The position numbers and the translations under genes are program-made. A stretch of 64,000 nucleotides of DNA from Neodothiora populina (taxonomy: Eukaryota): assembly GCF_041146345.1 (NCBI RefSeq), contig NW_027191404.1, positions 124,001 to 188,000 on the forward strand, written 5' to 3'. Below, piece by piece: positions 51,610-59,332 of the stretch (its first letter is position 1; each line of letters starts with the position of its first letter). The notes beneath the pieces are model-generated. The model made no database searches. It was not told the origin of the DNA and saw only the letters and a program-made list of their open reading frames with translations.

Positions 51610-51952
51610 TCCAGCTTGCTGCAACCGGCACTGCATCAGCCCAGCATCATATCGTTCTACTCCACCCGTACAATCCAGCATCTGCGGCACAGCACATCAC
51701 ACTACCATCTGAATCCAAGGCAACTGTACTCACGACGTCAGGGATACAGCTGTACATTGCACTGTACTGTACCACCAGAACAAGCTCCACTCCACTGCAC
51801 TCCACTGGGTAACAGTTACCTTAGTTACTCTCGCAACCAGTGCAACGTAGCAGCGTGTTTTGAGCCGAGGCCGAAGCTGAAGCTGCCCTCTCTCTCTCTC
51901 TCTCCCTCTCCCTCTTTCTCTCTAGCTCTTGACTTGACGGAATATCCTCACC

Positions 51953-53368
51953 ATGGCCAACTTCTCCTCGTCGCTTCCGGCCGCATACACGCACGAGATC
52001 GCCGCCCTGGAACGCGAAGTGCTCAAACATCAGCCAAACGACGTGCTTCAGTTCTGCGCCAATCATTTCCAGCGTCGCCTCGAGTCGCAGCGAGCCGAGG
52101 TGCTTCTCGCACAACAACATTCCACATCAAACAGCAAGGGCCCGGCAATGGCCGAGAGCAACTTCCCGGGCACCAACCCATTCCAACAGTCCACCCCCGG
52201 CCCCATGCAGCGTCTTGAAGAGGAGGAAGAGACGGATACCTTTGCCTCACCCACCGCCTCCAACTTCCCCTCTGGCGCCATGAACCGTGACGCCTCTCCA
52301 TTTGCTTCCGCCTCCAATTCCGCCTTTGGAAACTTCAACTTCTCTTCCGCCTCGTCTTCTGCCAGTAGAGCTGGCGCAGGCCCTGCCTCTTCTGCCTCGA
52401 CCGGCACCATGGACGCTCCACAGACGTTCCCAAACAACTACAACATGAACCGTCGTACTTCGGTCTCGGCCGAGTCGATGAACCCCTCAGGTGCCGACGA
52501 GGGCAACTGGAAGCCCCCGACCTTCCCCAAGACGGCCGAACAAGAGACTCGTCTCCGCACCGCCATCTCCCGCAACTTTCTCTTTGCCCACCTCGACGAC
52601 GACCAGACCGCACAGGTGCTTGGCGCCATGCAAGAGCGTAAAATCCCTGCCAGGGACGTCAAGGTCATCAGCCAGGGCGACCAGGGCGATTACTTCTACG
52701 TTGTCGAGAGCGGTTCCTTCGACATCTTCGTCTCGCCCACGGGCAAGATCGAGCCCGGTTCCGACGGCATGGGCAAGCAGGTCAGCACCACGGGCCCTGG
52801 CACCTCATTTGGTGAGCTCGCTCTCATGTACAACGCCCCGCGTGCCGCCACTGTCATCAGCACTGGTCCCAGCATCGTGTGGCAGCTCGACCGCGTCACT
52901 TTCCGTCGCATCCTAATGGATTCTGCTTTCGAACGTCGTCGCATGTACGAGTCCTTCCTGGACAGCGTGCCGCTACTCAATACCCTCACTCCTTACGAGC
53001 GTTCAAAGATTGCCGATGCTCTCGAGACCACTAAGCACCCCGCCGGAGAGCCCATCATCCGCGAGGGTGACGTCGGTGACCGATTCTACATCCTCGAGTC
53101 TGGAACCGCCAAAGCCTACAAGCACGGTCACTCTCAGCCTCTGAAGTCGTATCAAAAGGGCGATTATTTCGGTGAATTGGCGCTTCTCGACGACAAGCCC
53201 CGCGCTGCATCCGTCGTCGCCGACACCGAAGTCAAGCTTGCCACTCTCGGCAAGAACGGTTTCCAGAGACTTCTTGGACCCGTCGAGAGCATCATGCGCA
53301 GAGACGACCCGAGCAAGGGGGTCGATGCCGCAAGAGCCGAGACGGCCGCCTTTTCCCCGACCGCTTAG
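51953..53368 (+). CDS. BCY1: cAMP-dependent protein kinase regulatory subunit
   Basis: N-terminal D/D domain (QPNDVLQFCANHF), inhibitor site RRTSVSAES, two cNMP-binding cassettes FGELAL...PRAA; single exon. Confidence 0.97.
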   Translation: MANFSSSLPAAYTHEIAALEREVLKHQPNDVLQFCANHFQRRLESQRAEVLLAQQHSTSNSKGPAMAESNFPGTNPFQQSTPGPMQRLEEEEETDTFASPTASNFPSGAMNRDASPFASASNSAFGNFNFSSASSSASRAGAGPASSASTGTMDAPQTFPNNYNMNRRTSVSAESMNPSGADEGNWKPPTFPKTAEQETRLRTAISRNFLFAHLDDDQTAQVLGAMQERKIPARDVKVISQGDQGDYFYVVESGSFDIFVSPTGKIEPGSDGMGKQVSTTGPGTSFGELALMYNAPRAATVISTGPSIVWQLDRVTFRRILMDSAFERRRMYESFLDSVPLLNTLTPYERSKIADALETTKHPAGEPIIREGDVGDRFYILESGTAKAYKHGHSQPLKSYQKGDYFGELALLDDKPRAASVVADTEVKLATLGKNGFQRLLGPVESIMRRDDPSKGVDAARAETAAFSPTA

Positions 53369-54666
53369 AAGTCTGAGGGGAACACGAAGGAGGAACAAGA
53401 GAAGGAGGGAGACCTCGCTCGAGCGAAGCAGTCAATACAGCAGATACAAAGCAGGATCGCTGACCCAGACCATCCATGTGTTTTTGTCGGTTCTGCAAGG
53501 AAGGAGAAGGATTATAGCAAACGAATCGTCGTTCCTGGTGCCTTTGGACTCGACAACGGACCAGACACGGACGACGACGACTACCACGATGATGATGAAG
53601 GCGGAAGGGGCGTAATTCCCACCACCACCACTACTCCTCCAGACATTTACAGACGTACAAGGATTGGCACATTCAAGAGCAAGGCAATAATATCATCTCT
53701 CGGGGCCGAAATCGCCAGCGCCTTCAGCAACAGCAGCAGCAACAACAGCACCAGAGATTATTGAAGATCTTCATGAATGAAAAAAAAGGAAAGGGGTGGG
53801 TGGGGGTCTTTTTTTTCACTTCCGTGAGCAAGATGGGCGGGACAGGGAGAGCAAGGAGGGAAATGGGAGGAAAGGAAGGGAGGGGAGACCATCATCATGA
53901 ATGTGAAGCTCAGGACGGGGGGAAAAGGAGACTCACTAAGGCCTTTTTTTTTTTTACTTTTCTTATTTTCCTCGCCCAGATACATACACATCCGCTTTTT
54001 TCCTTGCACACTTTGTGTCCTCTGCCTCGTATGTGAATCCTGGGGGCAGAGGAATAGAGATTTAAAAACCTCGGTAGCCTCTAGGAGGGATGAAGAGCGA
54101 AAGAGCTCTTCGACCAGCAAGTCTGCTTCTCGAGATTTGGTTGTGTTACAGTACAGATCAGAGTCCATGGGTCCGACCAAGGAGAACATCCGTCCTTGCC
54201 CTACTACCTTGCCTCTCTACCTTGCCAGAGACGGGGGCTTACTGCTGGTTGTGGAGGTGCTGCTCACTCTGGAAATCAAACACATTGGACCTATGCACCG
54301 GGATGGAAATGGAATGACCCGAGAAGAGGCGGAAGGACTCTATAGTTCTTGCAACAGGAACAAGAAAAAAAAAGAAAAGAAAAGAGACACGTGAGATGGT
54401 CGTGTTAGTGTATGAGAGCACAAGACTGGAAAATTATTTACTGCGGGCTGGCTGGTCTAGTCTTCGAGCATGCCCTCTGCCTGTCTTTGTTCTCCACCAC
54501 TATCGCCCGCCCTGCCGCAATATAGTCTATACGTACATACATACATCATTAGAGTAAGAAGAGGAAGAAGAGAAAAACAGGATAATCAATCCTCAACGCC
54601 ATATCAACAAGTTTACCGTCCCTCACCCACCTATTCTTCCTTTTACAGCAAAGAAGAAGGCGGGTG

Positions 54667-55188
54667 TTAGAAAGGTATAGCATTACTGATCGCGCCGGAC
54701 CCATCAGCCGGGGCGGCGAGTAACCTGTTTAGGTAGCCTGTCAGTCCATCTGAAATGCACACAAACACGCGGTTTTGGAACGATAGAGGAAGGAGAGGAA
54801 ACAGAAGAGGAAAACACATACTTCTTGCCCGTCTCGGTCGCGCAACATCCGCAGAAGATGGATGCCGGCCAGCAGATGACCTGTCATTCGCCATTAGCAT
54901 TTCTGTTTCGAAACTCACAACAGTGATACGCAAAGATGATGAGAGGGGCGACAAGAACTGGGAGAGAAGACACATACAGCAAGAACAATCGCACTGGCGA
55001 ATCCAATGGTAGGACCGACGACTTTGCAGTGGCACGGGTTCTGGTCGGTTCCTTTATTGCGAAACTCTGTCAGTAGTGAACGAACAAGCGCACTTTTGCT
55101 TTGTATTTTTCGGATGATTTGTTTAATTGTCCGAGATGCACATACCGCATTGGAAGCAGACGAATGGAATGGGAAGGAAATCACACAT
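54667..55188 (-). CDS. Small Cys-rich predicted membrane protein, 77 aa, 4 exons: MCDFLPIPFVCFQCGTDQNPCHCKVVGPTIGFASAIVLAVICWPASIFCGCCATETGKKLLAAPADGSGAISNAIPF
   Basis: Exons 55188-55146, 55051-54978, 54880-54822, 54724-54667; three GTATGT donors, CTGAC/CTAAT branch sites, AG acceptors; 234 nt in frame from ATG to TAA. Confidence 0.85.
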
Positions 55189-56331
55189 CTTTGCGTGTGC
55201 TATGTGCTATAGACGGTGTGTTGTTGGTCTATAAGAGCTGTTTGCTTGCTTCGGATAGCCGGATATGGATGGGTGTGCGAGGTGTGATGACGTGAGACAG
55301 CAAGCCAAGCTGCTTTTCGAGGTCGAGTGGTATCAATGGGAGTAAAAGGTATGGATAATTACTGAGTTGTCTTCCTCTTGTTCGGATACTCGGACTAACA
55401 GTATGATACACAAAAGCTTGGAAGAAAAGATATCAAGAAGACAAAGATGAAGAGCCAAGAACGAAGATGCTTATGTGCGGCACGCAAGCGGTGACAGGAA
55501 ACTCAACACTTGCAGAAAGTGGAGAGAGAGAGAGAGGTGAGAGTCAGACAGAGAGAGAGCAAACCCAAAAAGCGATAGACTCCAATCCGACGGCAGGACT
55601 CTCGACTGATGACGCAGGAAAAGCAACCACAACTGTTGCAGCTACCTTACCTTAATTAGGTGTGCAGGGCAGCCAGCCAGCCAGCCAGGCAGAAAAAGCG
55701 CGTCTTACATAGCTTCAGATCACAGATCACTGATCGAACTCAGTAAAACGGGTAACTCTGCTTGCCGGGGCCCCGTCCGCGCTTTGATAACCTCGTGTTT
55801 GCTTGTACCTTTTCTGTCGTTCTCTCAACCTTAATACCTATCCTTGCTTGCTTGTTTTAAGAAGGGCCTGGAATGGATACCTACCGCGGCAATGTGTGAA
55901 TGGAGGCTCACCTGCCCGACGCTCTCTACACCTACCGTACCTTTTAGCATAAGGAACAGTGTGTAGGTGGTGGTGACGTATTTCACAGTAAAGCCCATCG
56001 AGTCGGAGATGACTCCATCTCGCTCCGGACACAGTAGGTATACCATACAAGTCATATAGCATTCTTTACTACAGTATGAATATTGGTTGCGTTCAAAATG
56101 TAATCATAACAACTCATACAGAGTATATACATTTGCATTCTTGCTGTAAAGTCTTCTATGGACTCGATGTCTTTCGGCGGTAAGGATGACTCCGTAGGTT
56201 GTTTGATGCAAGCCGAGTATCATATGGTATCACAAGTGCAAAGACGACAGAAGAGACAGCAGCGCAAATCTCGAATGTAGAAGCAGCATACATAATATAG
56301 AGCCAGAGGGAGACAAAATGCATGAGATCTT

Positions 56332-58761
56332 CTACGCCAGCTCGAACTCGCCACTGACCCCCTCAAACGCCGTAACAGTACCACCAATAGACTTAGCATC
56401 ACCAAAATACCTGAAACGGTACCGCCCCTTCAAAGCATCGATCAAGCCTTCGTCAACATCATCGTCATCGCTGTCATTACGTCCCCAGACACCGACTTCC
56501 CATCCCAGCTCCCAACTCAGACGCACCGTCGAAGTCCCTGCGACGCTGCTCGTGCGCTTCCATTCGTACACCAGACTCCAGTCGGCGTCGCTTCGGACTT
56601 GCTGCCAGATTCCGAGCTGTTGATTGTGCTTTTCGACGGCGGCAAAGGTGCCGTTTAATCGAAGATTGTTGCGAGGGTTCGCTCCGACAAAGGTAGCTGA
56701 GATGACGGGTGCTGAAGAAGACGAAAGTGAATAGCGGGGTCGGACGTCGTCGACGACGTCTGCAAAAGACTTAAAGAGAGGCGCTCTGTCCAGGACCACG
56801 GGTTGGATGAATGACAAAGAGACATTTGTGTTGATTGGTGGTTGTGGACCAGGGCTGAGTCTAGGCAGCGAGGCAGCGAAAGGCGGAAGAGAAGTGTCGT
56901 TTGATGTTTGAGCAGCAGCCGACAGATAGGGCAGACGAGAGAGTGTGAGGTTAATGTAGGCTTCCAAGGTATTCGGTCCGTACAATGTCGAGGCACCTTC
57001 ATATCTTTGGACTCCATACTCTTCCTCGGTGGTGATGTAGTGCGTGTAGCTGTTTGCTGGACCACCGAGTACAACAAATGGAGACTCTGAGGAACCTTCG
57101 GCCCACGAGCCAACGGCGGAAGAAGCGAGAGCATCCTTCCAACGACGTCCTGCCATGGTCGTAGCTTCGCCTGGACTGACAATGATAAGCAGCTGACCCA
57201 CCCTCAGAAGCTGGATATCGACGATATTCGGAGACCACTGGTATGGACTCATCGTCTCGCCGACATCAAGTAAGATGGGTTTCACGCCTTGGCAATCTAT
57301 TTGGTCAGGTCCAGGGGAGTGCAGCGAATTTCCCACGACAGCCCAGAAGGGATTCGCGTTGGGGTCCCCGGGATTGTTCTGCTTGAAGTCAAAGGCCCCG
57401 GGACCATCAGTGGTACCGGCGGCGAATGAGTATCCGAGCGCAGCAGCACAAGTGCGGCCAAGGGTACCGTTTGACAGCACAAAAGTCCTGTTCGCAAAAT
57501 CGACGAACGTATGCAAAGACCTGACAGTAGTTCCTCGCACTGACTCAAATTCGACTTCGTCACTTGTCTTTTTGACCATCGACTCGTATATTGAGCGTGC
57601 ACCGAGATACTGTCGGCGGCCGATCGCAAACGCAGACGCGGTGCCGCCATCGTCAAGACCCCAGTGAGGACCGCGACCGTGACAAGGCCCATTCTTGCCG
57701 CCGCAAAGGCTTGACTTGAAGTCGCATTGCTTGCCAGCATCTTCGCCGGACTCGCAATACGCGCCACGCACATTAGGCGAAGTGTCTCCAACGTTAGCCT
57801 GGGAGAAGCCCGCAACAAGACCATCAGATGCCGAATCAAGACCTTCGGCATACTTTTCGAACAAGTATGCGGCGACTCCCTTGTTGTCACCAGTAATGAG
57901 TGTATTGTTACCAAGCATTGAGGTGCCGTGCACCGGAAACCAAGTGAGCACACCAACATCCTTGCCGTCCGAGTCTCTGCGAAGCTTGAGCAGAGTCAAA
58001 GACTTGTCAACGCTGCCTTGGTACTTTTCACGCTCGCTCTCGGGATTTGCGAGATAGGCATAAGGACTGCGATTGATGTTTGCATCATCAACACGGACTG
58101 TACCGAAGTTGAGACGACCAGGCGTAAGGCTGTCGTGGGCACGCTTGATGGAGGCAACAGCACCTTGGACTATAGCCTCATAGCTCTGCTTACTGAAGCC
58201 TCGACTGGTGATCTGCGGAAGCAGATAGTTCAACCAAGCGCCAGGACCAGAATGAGAATGCGTACCGGTGACTGCAACGTTCTGTGAGCCGTATACAGCA
58301 TATTCCGGGCCCATGGATCGAAGCGAGTCGAGAATACCGTGGCGGACGGCTGTGTCTCCAGATTGTGTGTCAAGAACAAGATACACGAAGCGATCCTGTG
58401 GCTTGTCTGTGCTACCAATGATGAAAGCTCTAGAGTAAAGACGCTGACGCAGACCACTGCCCAGCTGATTTGGGTCGGCATAACCCATCATGTTGATTTC
58501 AACAACAGGGCCAGTGATGTCGGCCTTGCCTGCACCGACAAGATACTGATCCCCGGTTCCAGCAGTGGGATTCCATGACGGAACAGGAAGATGGTCAAGG
58601 ATTTGTTGATGATCGTTCTCCGTCCACCAAGACGAGACGATTTCTGGTTTCCAATGCCAGTAGTCCAGCTCTGGCAGACCAAAAGTTGATATTGCGGTGA
58701 ATGTTGCCACCAGGGCCAAGCAAGCAGCCGTCAAGGCTACTGCGATATGTGGGGGTGCCAT
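56332..58761 (-). CDS. Neutral/alkaline non-lysosomal ceramidase
   Basis: N-terminal signal anchor; GKADITGP, GLRQRLYSRAF, THSHSGP, HGTSM, GDTSPN, AGTTDGPG, GEATTMAGRR, QRYEGASTLYGP. Confidence 0.95.
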   Translation of the reverse strand: MAPPHIAVALTAACLALVATFTAISTFGLPELDYWHWKPEIVSSWWTENDHQQILDHLPVPSWNPTAGTGDQYLVGAGKADITGPVVEINMMGYADPNQLGSGLRQRLYSRAFIIGSTDKPQDRFVYLVLDTQSGDTAVRHGILDSLRSMGPEYAVYGSQNVAVTGTHSHSGPGAWLNYLLPQITSRGFSKQSYEAIVQGAVASIKRAHDSLTPGRLNFGTVRVDDANINRSPYAYLANPESEREKYQGSVDKSLTLLKLRRDSDGKDVGVLTWFPVHGTSMLGNNTLITGDNKGVAAYLFEKYAEGLDSASDGLVAGFSQANVGDTSPNVRGAYCESGEDAGKQCDFKSSLCGGKNGPCHGRGPHWGLDDGGTASAFAIGRRQYLGARSIYESMVKKTSDEVEFESVRGTTVRSLHTFVDFANRTFVLSNGTLGRTCAAALGYSFAAGTTDGPGAFDFKQNNPGDPNANPFWAVVGNSLHSPGPDQIDCQGVKPILLDVGETMSPYQWSPNIVDIQLLRVGQLLIIVSPGEATTMAGRRWKDALASSAVGSWAEGSSESPFVVLGGPANSYTHYITTEEEYGVQRYEGASTLYGPNTLEAYINLTLSRLPYLSAAAQTSNDTSLPPFAASLPRLSPGPQPPINTNVSLSFIQPVVLDRAPLFKSFADVVDDVRPRYSLSSSSAPVISATFVGANPRNNLRLNGTFAAVEKHNQQLGIWQQVRSDADWSLVYEWKRTSSVAGTSTVRLSWELGWEVGVWGRNDSDDDDVDEGLIDALKGRYRFRYFGDAKSIGGTVTAFEGVSGEFELA

Positions 58762-59332
58762 GGTGGAAGGCGAGGAGTAAATTAGGTTTCTACAGTCATT
58801 TAGATGCGAGTGTCGTGGGAGTCATTCTCTGGTCGATTGGAAGAGTAGCAAGAGAAGAGAATAACTGAATTTGGGCTGTTACCTTGACAGCACATCAGGT
58901 GCAGCGAGTGCATAGTGGTAGTACTAATAGATACAATAGATAGAGGTATGGTAAGCTAAGACACACCGGCTCATCCGCGTCATGACGTAGATTGGGGTAT
59001 AGTGGCTGTATTCCTGAGCATACCTTAGGTTCGACTTACGTCAGGCAGCCGCGGGGGTCCAATGATGCAAGGCGGTGAGGCCACAAGGCACCCATGGCCT
59101 GGATTCTGCCATCCGACGGCCTCATTTCTCTACCACGACCATTCTGATATAATAGAGGAATCACAAACTACAGGTCCGGTCGTCTCGAAGATTGTCGTGT
59201 GTCTTCTGACATCTGAGCATCATCTATAGAACGACACATAGAACGGCACATACAACTACAGCTCAGCGGATGACCTTTGAATGAGCAACACGATACTACC
59301 AATAACGAATCACAAAATATATATCTATCACC

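What the first reader, a model, noticed from the sequence alone, without database searches (positions are those of the whole stretch)
54667..55188. Hidden 4-exon gene for a 77-aa, 9-Cys membrane micro-protein resembling an uncharacterised plant family
Seen: in what looks like intergenic DNA, three introns (55145-55052, 54977-54881, 54821-54725), each with a GTATGT donor, branch site and AG acceptor, splice into one exact ATG-to-TAA frame. The ORF track catches only fragments of it. The product has a CxxC-x6-CxC cluster (CFQCGTDQNPCHC), a ~20-aa hydrophobic helix, a CGCC cluster and a C-terminal NAIPF. A purine/pyrimidine-skewed leader-like stretch lies upstream (~55200-55650). From memory and unverified: it matches short land-plant proteins of the pattern CxxCGTxxNPCxCKVVGPTxGF...WP...G(R/K)(R/K)xxAxPA...NAIP(I/F), with no established function that I know of. 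Inference: a metal-binding or palmitoylated membrane peptide, perhaps cross-kingdom or horizontally acquired, that gene callers could easily miss.
Basis: partly seen in the sequence, partly recalled or inferred. Interest (0 to 1): 0.82.

Follow-up and report, generated by a model that had tools for sequence, protein, structure and literature searches.

The report
Conserved spliced cysteine-rich membrane micro-protein gene
A real four-exon fungal gene encodes a 77-residue cysteine-rich membrane protein from an old, little-studied family shared by fungi and green plants; it was inherited vertically, not acquired from plants, and is already annotated as a hypothetical protein in related fungi.

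Summary
Minus-strand exons 55188-55146, 55051-54978, 54880-54822 and 54724-54667 join through three GTATGT..AG introns into one 234-nt ATG-to-TAA frame giving 77 aa with 9 Cys. The gene is real. The product is 86-87% identical over its full length to annotated 76-77-aa hypothetical proteins of Aureobasidium pullulans and another dothideomycete. All 78 blastn matches to related metagenome loci fall on the four exons. dN is far below dS. Introns 2 and 3 are at conserved positions in 36/36 and 34/36 relatives.

The remembered plant resemblance is also real. A fungal profile finds land plants, streptophyte and green algae, and chytrid fungi. One rice-genus member is named 'Little protein 1', which a review equates with SALP1.

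Horizontal transfer is not supported. The family is spread across Ascomycota, and fungi and plants fall on opposite sides of the tree. No Pfam family, solved structure or fold match was found.

Best reading: a membrane-anchored micro-protein with an N-terminal CxxCG…CxC metal knuckle, a kinked hydrophobic anchor, juxtamembrane cysteines and a conserved C-terminal docking tail. A role in ion or osmotic stress is possible. Function is inferred, not shown. This is an ordinary new member of a known but barely studied family.

The parts
55146..55188 (-). Exon 1 (43 nt). Start codon at 55188-55186, with A at -3 and an in-frame stop just upstream. It encodes the N-terminus up to the first base of the Gly codon of the CxxCG motif.
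   Evidence: tblastn and blastn matches to relatives
55052..55145 (-). Intron 1, 94 nt, phase 1, GTATGT..AG, ACTGAC branch-like element. This position is shared by only 2 of 36 distinct relatives' models. Other relatives have an intron a few bases away, an intron after GPTLG, or none.
54978..55051 (-). Exon 2 (74 nt). It encodes the most conserved core (…NPCHCKVVGPT-GF) and the first half of the hydrophobic segment.
   Evidence: 38 of 78 blastn HSPs lie here
54881..54977 (-). Intron 2, 97 nt, phase 0, GTATGT..AG. The position is conserved in 36 of 36 distinct complete models from related loci.
54822..54880 (-). Exon 3 (59 nt). It encodes the second half of the hydrophobic segment (CWP…), the CGCC cluster and the basic GKK.
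   Evidence: 29 of 78 HSPs
54725..54821 (-). Intron 3, 97 nt, phase 2, GTATGT..AG. The position is conserved in 34 of 36 distinct complete models.
54667..54724 (-). Exon 4 (58 nt including the TAA stop at 54669-54667). It encodes the C-terminal tail with an invariant Pro and the …NAIPF end.
55389..55638 (-). Pyrimidine-rich (CT) tract on the sense strand, 200-450 nt upstream of the ATG. It is probably core-promoter or 5'-leader sequence; that role is inferred from composition only.

Best explanation
SHOWN. Window 54667-55188 (minus strand) is a genuine protein-coding gene of four exons under purifying selection. Its 77-aa product belongs to a family of 68-80-aa proteins that has no Pfam model. 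The family occurs throughout Ascomycota, in chytrid fungi, and in green algae and land plants. Some plant members are named 'little protein 1', which a review equates with rice SALP1. The gene descends vertically within fungi.

INFERRED anatomy:
- Residues ~11-23 form a C-x2-C-G…C-x-C knuckle. Three of its four Cys and the Gly are conserved in at least 90% of sequences across kingdoms.
- Residues ~25-52 are a 28-residue hydrophobic stretch (mean Kyte-Doolittle ~1.8-2.0). It opens with an invariant Gly-Pro and has an invariant aromatic-Pro (CWP in fungi, EWP in land plants) in its second half.
- A Cys/His-bearing boundary follows (CGCC here), then a basic patch.
- The 25-residue tail has two invariant prolines and ends …NAIP-I/F.

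MOST LIKELY mechanism (my odds ~0.4-0.45). The hydrophobic stretch is a kinked hairpin or anchor that leaves both polar ends in the cytosol. The N-terminal knuckle binds a metal ion, Zn most likely. The juxtamembrane cysteines add ligands or carry S-acyl chains. The conserved C-terminal tail docks onto a conserved membrane partner, so the peptide acts as a small accessory or regulatory subunit.

Physiological role (my odds ~0.3): by analogy with rice SALP1, ion or osmotic-stress homeostasis at the plasma or endomembrane.
For: Gene is real:
- The splice model is exact and was recovered blind by my spliced aligner.
- The exon-2 frame alone finds 16 proteins at E<=10 among 17 candidates, led by Aureobasidium hypothetical proteins.
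- The spliced product is identical at 67 of its 77 residues to the 76-aa P0003, at 66 of 77 to P0007, and at 73 of 77 to the model on locus L041.
- 78 of 78 blastn HSPs (52 of 80 loci) from a 2,501-nt query lie on the four exons, which make up 9% of that query.
- dN is 0.033-0.24 against dS >=1.7. dN/dS is 0.019-0.127 in the 7 of 14 comparisons where dS could be estimated.
- All 102 of 102 inferred introns in relatives are GT..AG. Intron 2 is conserved in 36/36 and intron 3 in 34/36.
- Microsynteny holds: the same neighbours (PKA regulatory subunit, neutral ceramidase) flank the gene in related loci.

Family and vertical descent:
- The profile of 8 fungal proteins finds 176 proteins at E<=1. 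Every organism-named hit among the 120 listed is an ascomycete.
- A full HMMER scan finds 172 representatives at E<=1e-3.
- Hits include Punica, Nelumbo, Dioscorea, Oryza, Phaseolus, Linum, Sphagnum, Calypogeia, Physcomitrium, Ceratodon, Spirogloea, Chlamydomonas, Monoraphidium, Caulochytrium, Geranomyces and Gonapodya.
- In the tree, Ascomycota form one side (94/86) with Saitoella basal. Green plants form a clade (89/77) containing streptophytes (96/75), and chytrids lie between.

Anatomy:
- The cross-kingdom alignment gives the invariant and near-invariant columns, the Cys counts, and the hydropathy and flank charges.
- In land plants both flanks of the hydrophobic stretch are basic (N +2 to +3, C +4 to +5).
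- AlphaFold2 (mean pLDDT 65.5, i.e. modest) gives a beta-hairpin at 11-13/22-24 carrying the Cys pairs, then helices 29-47 and 54-73.

Role:
- UniRef names the 74-aa Oryza meyeriana member 'Little protein 1'.
- OsSALP1 is cited among rice salt-tolerance genes (PMC10179023).
Against: - No expression data for this genome were available, so splicing is inferred from conservation.
- Topology, metal binding, acylation, partner and phenotype are all untested.
- The AlphaFold2 model is of modest confidence. It draws the hydrophobic part as one continuous 19-residue helix, which fits a single membrane pass as well as a hairpin does.
- In fungi the flank charges are nearly balanced, so they give no topology signal.
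- The post-anchor cysteines are not conserved in several angiosperms. They cannot be essential family-wide.
- The link between this family and OsSALP1 rests on names, not on the rice sequence, which I did not see. The primary paper is not held.
- No hit from Basidiomycota, Saccharomycotina or animals carried a name in any list. A universal core function is therefore unlikely.
Confidence: 0.75

Rival explanations
1. Single-pass type III membrane protein (N-terminus outside or lumenal, C-terminus cytosolic). The four N-terminal cysteines form two disulfides rather than binding metal. The CGCC cluster at the cytosolic end of the helix is S-acylated. The basic patch and C-terminal tail face the cytosol.
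For: - AlphaFold2 draws one continuous helix at 29-47.
- The C-flank is more basic than the N-flank: mean net +1.2 against +0.6, and +4 to +5 against +2 to +3 in land plants.
- Cysteines next to a basic patch at a helix end are typical S-acylation sites (general knowledge).
- The number of conserved N-terminal Cys is even.
Against: - Two or three basic residues sit directly before the hydrophobic stretch in plants. That disfavours translocating the N-tail.
- The CxxC-Gly signature is typical of metal knuckles (general knowledge).
- The invariant mid-segment Pro, with a Glu beside it in land plants, is awkward in a plain membrane-spanning helix.
- The juxtamembrane Cys are missing in several angiosperms.
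Confidence: 0.3
2. One reading: the gene was acquired by a fungus from plants, or the reverse, by horizontal transfer.
For: Motif-level similarity between fungal and plant members is high: 35-43% identity to P0003 across kingdoms. No named hit came from Basidiomycota, Saccharomycotina or animals.
Against: - Named hits cover many classes of Pezizomycotina plus Taphrinomycotina, and three chytrid-grade fungi also have it.
- The tree separates Ascomycota (94/86) from green plants (89/77). Neither is nested in the other, and Saitoella and Spirogloea sit basal in their groups as in the species trees.
- Intron positions differ between the kingdoms. Mis-annotated read-through models place the plant and algal intron after the CRCK motif (P0191, P0213, P0223). 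Fungal introns lie elsewhere.
- Synteny is conserved among ascomycete loci.
Confidence: 0.03
3. A true LITAF/SIMPLE-like domain protein: a homologous member of that monotopic zinc-binding family, not merely one with a similar layout.
For: UniRef labels two family members (P0074, P0077) 'LITAF domain-containing protein'. The general layout is similar: a CxxC knuckle, then a ~25-residue hydrophobic region with a central Pro, then Cys/His (LITAF layout recalled).
Against: Pfam's LITAF model matched 0 of 38 alignment members and 0 of 7 further members, including P0074 and P0077, at E<=10. The second CxxC knuckle that closes the LITAF zinc site (recalled definition) is absent from the alignment.
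Confidence: 0.08
4. Chance open frame or decayed pseudogene with no function.
For: None beyond the lack of transcript data.
Against: Full-length conservation, dN far below dS, conservation limited to the exons, intact splice signals, and intact start and stop.
Confidence: 0.01

Closest known systems
Annotated ascomycete orthologues, e.g. 'hypothetical protein D6C90_02814' and 'D6D13_04510' of Aureobasidium pullulans (P0003, P0002) and 'MBLNU457_4059t1' of Dothideomycetes sp. NU457 (P0007)
   Same: Length 76-77 aa, 86-87% identical over the whole product, all motifs shared. Related loci have the same introns 2 and 3 and the same neighbouring genes.
   Different: The window's introns are about twice as long (94-97 nt against ~50 nt). 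The gene is inverted relative to both neighbours. Intron 1 is at a position shared by only 2 of 36 relatives.
Plant 'little protein 1' / rice OsSALP1 (Os01g0644200; Yuan et al. 2016, Plant Mol Biol Rep 34:524, not held, known to me only from citations and recall)
   Same: Same family by profile search: for example P0150 from Punica at E 6e-12, and the P0149 cluster, whose Oryza meyeriana member P0261 is named 'Little protein 1', at 5e-12. Shared features are length, the CxxCG…NPCxCK-GPT-GF core, the aromatic-Pro in the anchor, a basic patch and the …AIP-I/F end.
   Different: Only 35-43% identical. Land plants have EWP rather than CWP, few or no juxtamembrane Cys, a stronger basic patch (RHxKGRR) and one extra residue in the tail. 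I did not see the sequence of OsSALP1 itself, so the link is by name. Plasma-membrane location and salt tolerance are reported for rice, not for any fungus.
LITAF / SIMPLE-like monotopic zinc-binding membrane domain (Pfam zf-LITAF-like)
   Same: It may work alike: Cys knuckle, ~25-residue hydrophobic region with a central proline, Cys/His after it, and polar ends possibly on one side of the membrane. Two members carry this name in UniRef.
   Different: No Pfam match in 45 proteins tested. There is no second CxxC knuckle. The protein is much shorter and has its own conserved C-terminal tail. It is a resemblance of layout, not membership.
PMP3 / RCI2 proteolipids (small fungal-plant membrane proteins affecting salt tolerance; recalled knowledge)
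   Same: Tiny hydrophobic proteins shared by fungi and plants, and stress- or salt-linked in plants.
   Different: Unrelated in sequence: no Pfam match to that family. PMP3/RCI2 proteins have two membrane helices and no Cys knuckle. This is an analogy only.

Membership tests
Fungal-plant 'little protein 1 / SALP1-like' micro-protein family (no Pfam model; defined here from alignment A2) | Stand-alone protein of about 68-80 aa | tested here: met
   77 aa. Correct models of relatives are 68-81 aa. Longer forms show no recurrent fused domain and look like merged gene models (45 hits).
Fungal-plant 'little protein 1 / SALP1-like' micro-protein family (no Pfam model; defined here from alignment A2) | N-terminal CxxCG-x4/5-NPC-x-C-K-(V/I)(V/I)-GPT-(L/I)-GF core | tested here: met
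   Present in the product. These columns are invariant or conserved in at least 90% of the 38-sequence cross-kingdom alignment.
Fungal-plant 'little protein 1 / SALP1-like' micro-protein family (no Pfam model; defined here from alignment A2) | Hydrophobic segment with invariant aromatic-Pro, followed by a basic patch | tested here: met
   CWP and GKK in the product. P43 is invariant. Hydropathy 1.8-2.0.
Fungal-plant 'little protein 1 / SALP1-like' micro-protein family (no Pfam model; defined here from alignment A2) | C-terminal tail with invariant Pro and a terminal …(A)IP-(I/F) | tested here: met
   The product ends NAIPF. P63 and P75 are invariant.
Fungal-plant 'little protein 1 / SALP1-like' micro-protein family (no Pfam model; defined here from alignment A2) | Significant profile match between fungal and plant members | tested here: met
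   A profile of 8 fungal proteins finds plant and algal representatives at E 1e-15 to 1e-10 in a library of 1.84 billion. They are named as plants or algae.
Fungal-plant 'little protein 1 / SALP1-like' micro-protein family (no Pfam model; defined here from alignment A2) | Rice OsSALP1 (Os01g0644200) itself belongs to this family | not tested
The link rests on the UniRef name 'Little protein 1' for the 74-aa Oryza meyeriana member, the review's phrase 'little protein 1 (SALP1)', and a gene table giving SALP1 = Os01g0644200.
Fungal-plant 'little protein 1 / SALP1-like' micro-protein family (no Pfam model; defined here from alignment A2) | Plasma-membrane location and effect on salt tolerance | not testable with these tools
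   Known only from a review passage on the plant protein and my recall of the 2016 paper.
LITAF / SIMPLE-like domain (Pfam zf-LITAF-like) | Match to the family's profile HMM | tested here: not met
   0 of 38 members and 0 of 7 further members, including the two that UniRef names LITAF, at E<=10. The pieces of the window's own product also gave nothing.
LITAF / SIMPLE-like domain (Pfam zf-LITAF-like) | Second (H)xCxxC knuckle after the hydrophobic region (definition recalled) | tested here: not met
   The alignment shows CGCC, CC-x-H, C-F-R-H, or no Cys at that place, never CxxC.
PMP3 / RCI2 (UPF0057) proteolipids | Match to the family's profile HMM | tested here: not met
   Not among any Pfam hits at E<=10.

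The most novel reading that the evidence does not exclude
The family is a so-far unrecognised, ancient fungal-plant class of monotopic metal-binding micro-proteins. Both Cys-bearing ends would be held at the cytosolic face, LITAF-like in layout but independent in origin. A membrane-embedded Cys/Glu-Trp-Pro site and a C-terminal docking peptide would tune a conserved cation-handling membrane protein. Under this reading the fungal gene is the functional counterpart of rice SALP1 and contributes to salt or osmotic tolerance in this dothideomycete.
Probability: 0.2. Interest if true: 0.55.

Novelty: new member of a known kind. Interest (0 to 1): 0.3.

Why it matters
It shows that a gene invisible to ORF scanning can be recovered from raw sequence by splice logic, and that public gene models for this family are often wrong.

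Biologically, it extends a family I recall being described as plant-specific (rice SALP1) to ascomycetes and chytrids. That gives genetically tractable fungal systems in which to learn what this conserved 77-residue protein does. The family has no Pfam model and no solved structure, so a curated model would correct many mis-annotations.

The gene itself is an ordinary, vertically inherited orthologue, and an earlier report of this scan reached the same conclusion for another genome.

Tried and rejected
- Pfam on the four exon-frame pieces and on full-length relatives: only sub-threshold noise.
- PDB sequence search with profile A2: 0 matches at E<=10.
- Foldseek against the PDB with the AlphaFold2 model: no match at E<=1e-3.
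- VIA-align wide search: best Z 4.5, generic helical hairpins, none at Z>=5. Uninformative, and not evidence of a new fold.
- Homodimer prediction for P0003: 'no answer', score 0.01 against a mark of 0.32. No evidence either way.
- Whole genome of the window: not held. Paralogues could be checked only within the window, where there are none (best off-locus tblastn E 0.003, low-complexity).
- Literature by sequence motif: 0 papers. A second motif search found only two papers, through the name 'little protein 1'.
- The primary OsSALP1 paper is not held.
- A rice MSU locus identifier that I guessed from memory turned out to be an unrelated Tat-pathway protein. Discarded.
- Inverted repeats that might mark the inversion of the gene: none convincing.
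- Earlier findings of this scan near this place or by sequence: none.
- ESM Atlas: only unnamed Ascomycota and Streptophyta clusters with no Pfam family.
- Search for longer fused forms: no recurrent domain partner.

Full report
**1. The observation**

Reading the minus strand and joining the proposed exons in a script gives 43+74+59+58 = 234 nt. The frame runs from ATG at 55188 to TAA at 54669-54667 and encodes 77 aa with 9 Cys. The introns are 94, 97 and 97 nt. All begin GTATGT and end AG, and each has a CTRAY-like element 12-19 nt before the acceptor.

The start is the first ATG after an in-frame stop and has A at -3.

The sense strand upstream (55189-55650) is 60.4% pyrimidine, peaking at 74% in 55489-55538. 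This is in the top 3.4% of same-sized tiles of the window.

**2. The gene is real**

The 94-aa reading frame that contains exon 2 found 16 proteins at E<=10 among 17 candidates. The list is led by Aureobasidium pullulans hypothetical proteins of 76 aa.

The spliced product, compared inside a script, matches 67 of its 77 residues in P0003 and 66 of 77 in P0007 and P0002, over the full length. All four exons are therefore vouched for by independently annotated proteins.

A scan of metagenome contigs with a profile of 8 fungal proteins matched 404 stretches. Of these, 89 encoded a relative and 80 were kept. All 80 look fungal.

A blastn search of 2,501 nt around the gene against these loci gave 78 HSPs in 52 loci. 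Every one lies on one of the four exons (38, 29, 10 and 1 for exons 2, 3, 1 and 4). None lies in the introns or flanks, which are 91% of the query.

I wrote a protein-to-DNA spliced aligner. As a control it recovered the window's three introns exactly. It gave complete ATG-to-stop models for 55 of the 80 loci, representing 36 distinct proteins. The other 25 were:
- cut by contig ends;
- started one codon off because of the query used; or
- in seven loci (L030-32, L035-36, L050, L067), lacked a proper C-terminus.

All 102 introns in the 36 models are GT..AG. The closest model, on L041, shares 73 of 77 residues and all three intron positions.

I chose 16 loci for dN/dS: the nearest ones plus a spread. 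Two could not be rebuilt from my stored coordinates (L034, L017). In the other 14, dN is 0.033-0.239. dS could be estimated in 7 and is 1.7-4.3, which is saturated, giving dN/dS of 0.019-0.127. In the other 7 the NG86 dS was undefined because of saturation. This is strong purifying selection.

**3. Family range and descent**

The 8-protein profile found 176 proteins at E<=1 among 3,864 candidates. Every organism-named hit among the 120 listed is an ascomycete: Dothideo-, Leotio-, Eurotio-, Sordario- and Lecanoromycetes, plus Saitoella.

A filter-only HMMER scan of 1.84 billion representatives found 172 at E<=1e-3 and 64 at E<=1e-10. Cluster look-ups on 30 of them named:
- land plants: Punica, Nelumbo, Reevesia, Dioscorea, Phaseolus, Linum, Oryza meyeriana, Sphagnum, Calypogeia, Ceratodon, Physcomitrium;
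- a streptophyte alga: Spirogloea;
- green algae: Chlamydomonas (two paralogues), Monoraphidium;
- chytrid-grade fungi: Caulochytrium, Geranomyces, Gonapodya;
- one red alga: Pyropia.

A tree of 43 rows on 76 columns is short and many forks are unresolved. It still puts all 23 ascomycete rows on one side of a branch (94/86), with Saitoella basal. Green plants form a clade (89/77) containing streptophytes (96/75), ordered Spirogloea, then Sphagnum, then the rest. Chytrids and unnamed sequences lie between.

Intron 2 (phase 0) is at the same place in 36 of 36 fungal models, and intron 3 (phase 2) in 34 of 36. The first intron varies:
- the window's position in 2 of 36;
- four bases downstream in 13;
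- after GPTLG in 10;
- absent in 7;
- other patterns in 4.

Plant and algal read-through models place their intron after the CRCK motif (P0191, P0213, P0223).

Together with conserved neighbours (below), this is vertical inheritance of an old gene.

**4. What it is not**

- No Pfam family matched the pieces, 6 relatives, all 38 alignment members or 7 further members.
- Two members are called 'LITAF domain-containing' by UniRef. Pfam's LITAF model does not match them, and the alignment lacks a second CxxC knuckle.
- No PDB sequence matched, and there was no fold match of note.
- The ESM Atlas returns only unnamed Ascomycota and Streptophyta clusters.
- Longer proteins containing the motif show no recurrent partner domain and look like merged gene models.

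**5. Anatomy and likely mechanism**

In the 38-sequence cross-kingdom alignment, five columns are invariant: the Gly-Pro that opens the hydrophobic stretch, the Pro of the aromatic-Pro motif inside it, and two prolines of the tail. Conserved at 90% or more are the first three Cys of the knuckle, the Gly after CxxC, Asn-Pro, Lys, and Thr-x-Gly-Phe.

Cysteine conservation:

| Position | Ascomycota (of 22) | Other sequences (of 16) |
|---|---|---|
| Four knuckle Cys | 22, 21, 22, 18 | 15, 14, 15, 13 |
| Cys of CWP | 21 | 4 (Glu in 8) |
| Three post-anchor Cys | 19, 21, 18 | 0, 7, 8 |

The hydrophobic stretch averages 1.5-2.35 on the Kyte-Doolittle scale (~1.8-2.0 in the window's close relatives). 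Flank charges are balanced in fungi but basic on both sides in land plants.

AlphaFold2 on P0003 with this alignment has mean pLDDT 65.5. It gives a beta-hairpin (11-13, 22-24) that carries the Cys pairs, then helices 29-47 and 54-73.

From this I infer a membrane-anchored peptide with three working parts:
- a metal knuckle (CxxC followed by Gly is the usual signature, from general knowledge);
- juxtamembrane Cys/His;
- a conserved docking tail.

I favour a kinked hairpin with both ends cytosolic (odds ~0.4-0.45) over an N-out single pass with disulfides and S-acylation (~0.3). Neither is shown.

**6. Link to known biology**

UniRef calls the 74-aa Oryza meyeriana member 'Little protein 1' and a Dioscorea member 'Cold-regulated protein'.

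I saw the following only as passages:
- A table lists 'Little protein 1' among drought-up-regulated Physcomitrella targets (PMC5054160).
- OsSALP1 is listed among rice salt-tolerance genes, citing Yuan et al. 2016 (PMC10179023 and PMC11978549).
- SALP1 is given as Os01g0644200 (PMC12757826).
- A wheat probe matching that locus sits in a salinity expression table (PMC4526543).

The 2016 paper itself is not held. Its content is known to me only by recall and from these citations, and I did not see the rice sequence.

I found no paper on a fungal member. The searches were by motif strings and names only.

An earlier report of this scan (e1-7587292) reached the same reading for a 76-aa homologue in another genome. 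This is agreement, not independent evidence.

**7. Context**

The gene lies between a PKA regulatory-subunit gene (+ strand, 51938-53368; RIIa and two cNMP-binding domains) and a neutral ceramidase gene (- strand, 56332-58821).

In related loci the PKA-R homologue lies upstream on the same strand as the micro-gene (L026-28, L047-49, L051). The ceramidase lies downstream, convergent (L034, L042). In the window the micro-gene has the opposite orientation to both neighbours. A small inversion therefore occurred in this lineage. I found no flanking inverted repeats.

**8. Verdict**

The gene is a vertically inherited orthologue of annotated fungal hypothetical proteins. It belongs to a barely studied fungal-plant micro-protein family whose biochemical function is still open. 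Interest is modest.

Noticed in passing
window 53369-56331 versus loci L026-L028, L047-L049, L051 (PKA-R) and L034, L042 (ceramidase): The micro-gene sits between the same two neighbours as in related fungi, but in the opposite orientation to both. In relatives the order is PKA-R, then the micro-gene on the same strand, then a convergent ceramidase. This implies a small local inversion in this lineage. No flanking inverted repeats were found.
   Followed up: partly
window 54725-55145 (three introns): All three introns are 94-97 nt with identical GTATGT donors. The homologous introns in 36 related models are mostly 46-60 nt. Introns in this lineage have roughly doubled in length.
   Followed up: partly
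database proteins P0001, P0004, P0010, P0014-P0016, P0078, P0093, P0119, P0121 and many rows: A large share of public gene models for this family are mis-spliced: read-through into an intron, in-frame intron retention, or fusion to a neighbouring gene. Several carry transferred names that are clearly wrong ('polyol transporter 2', 'COP9 signalosome subunit 1', 'CWF19-like protein mug161').
   Followed up: partly
related loci, first intron (alignment A2 columns 28-31 and 46): The first intron is evolutionarily mobile. It is found at the window's position in 2 models, four bases downstream in 13, after GPTLG in 10, absent in 7, and in other patterns in 4, out of 36 distinct models. Introns 2 and 3 are almost fixed.
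   Followed up: yes
protein P0239 (named Pyropia vietnamensis, a red alga): The only red-algal hit carries the unusual 'CGPGVGLCG-K' variant of the knuckle. That variant is otherwise seen in Xylariales-type fungal members (P0131, P0153). In the tree P0239 groups with a chytrid on a long branch. Fungal contamination of that assembly is possible.
   Followed up: no
proteins P0031 (76 aa, 1,008-nt contigs) and P0083 (85 aa, 7,047-nt contig): These are full-length, uninterrupted fungal-type proteins called on short JGI/Logan contigs. That implies intron-free templates: either transcripts (which would be indirect evidence of splicing in relatives) or intronless genes in an unidentified lineage. The contigs could not be fetched.
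   Followed up: no
window 51938-53368 (+) and 56332-58821 (-): The flanking genes are a cAMP-dependent protein kinase regulatory subunit (RIIa and cNMP-binding domains) and a neutral/alkaline ceramidase. Each appears here as a single long ORF.
   Followed up: yes
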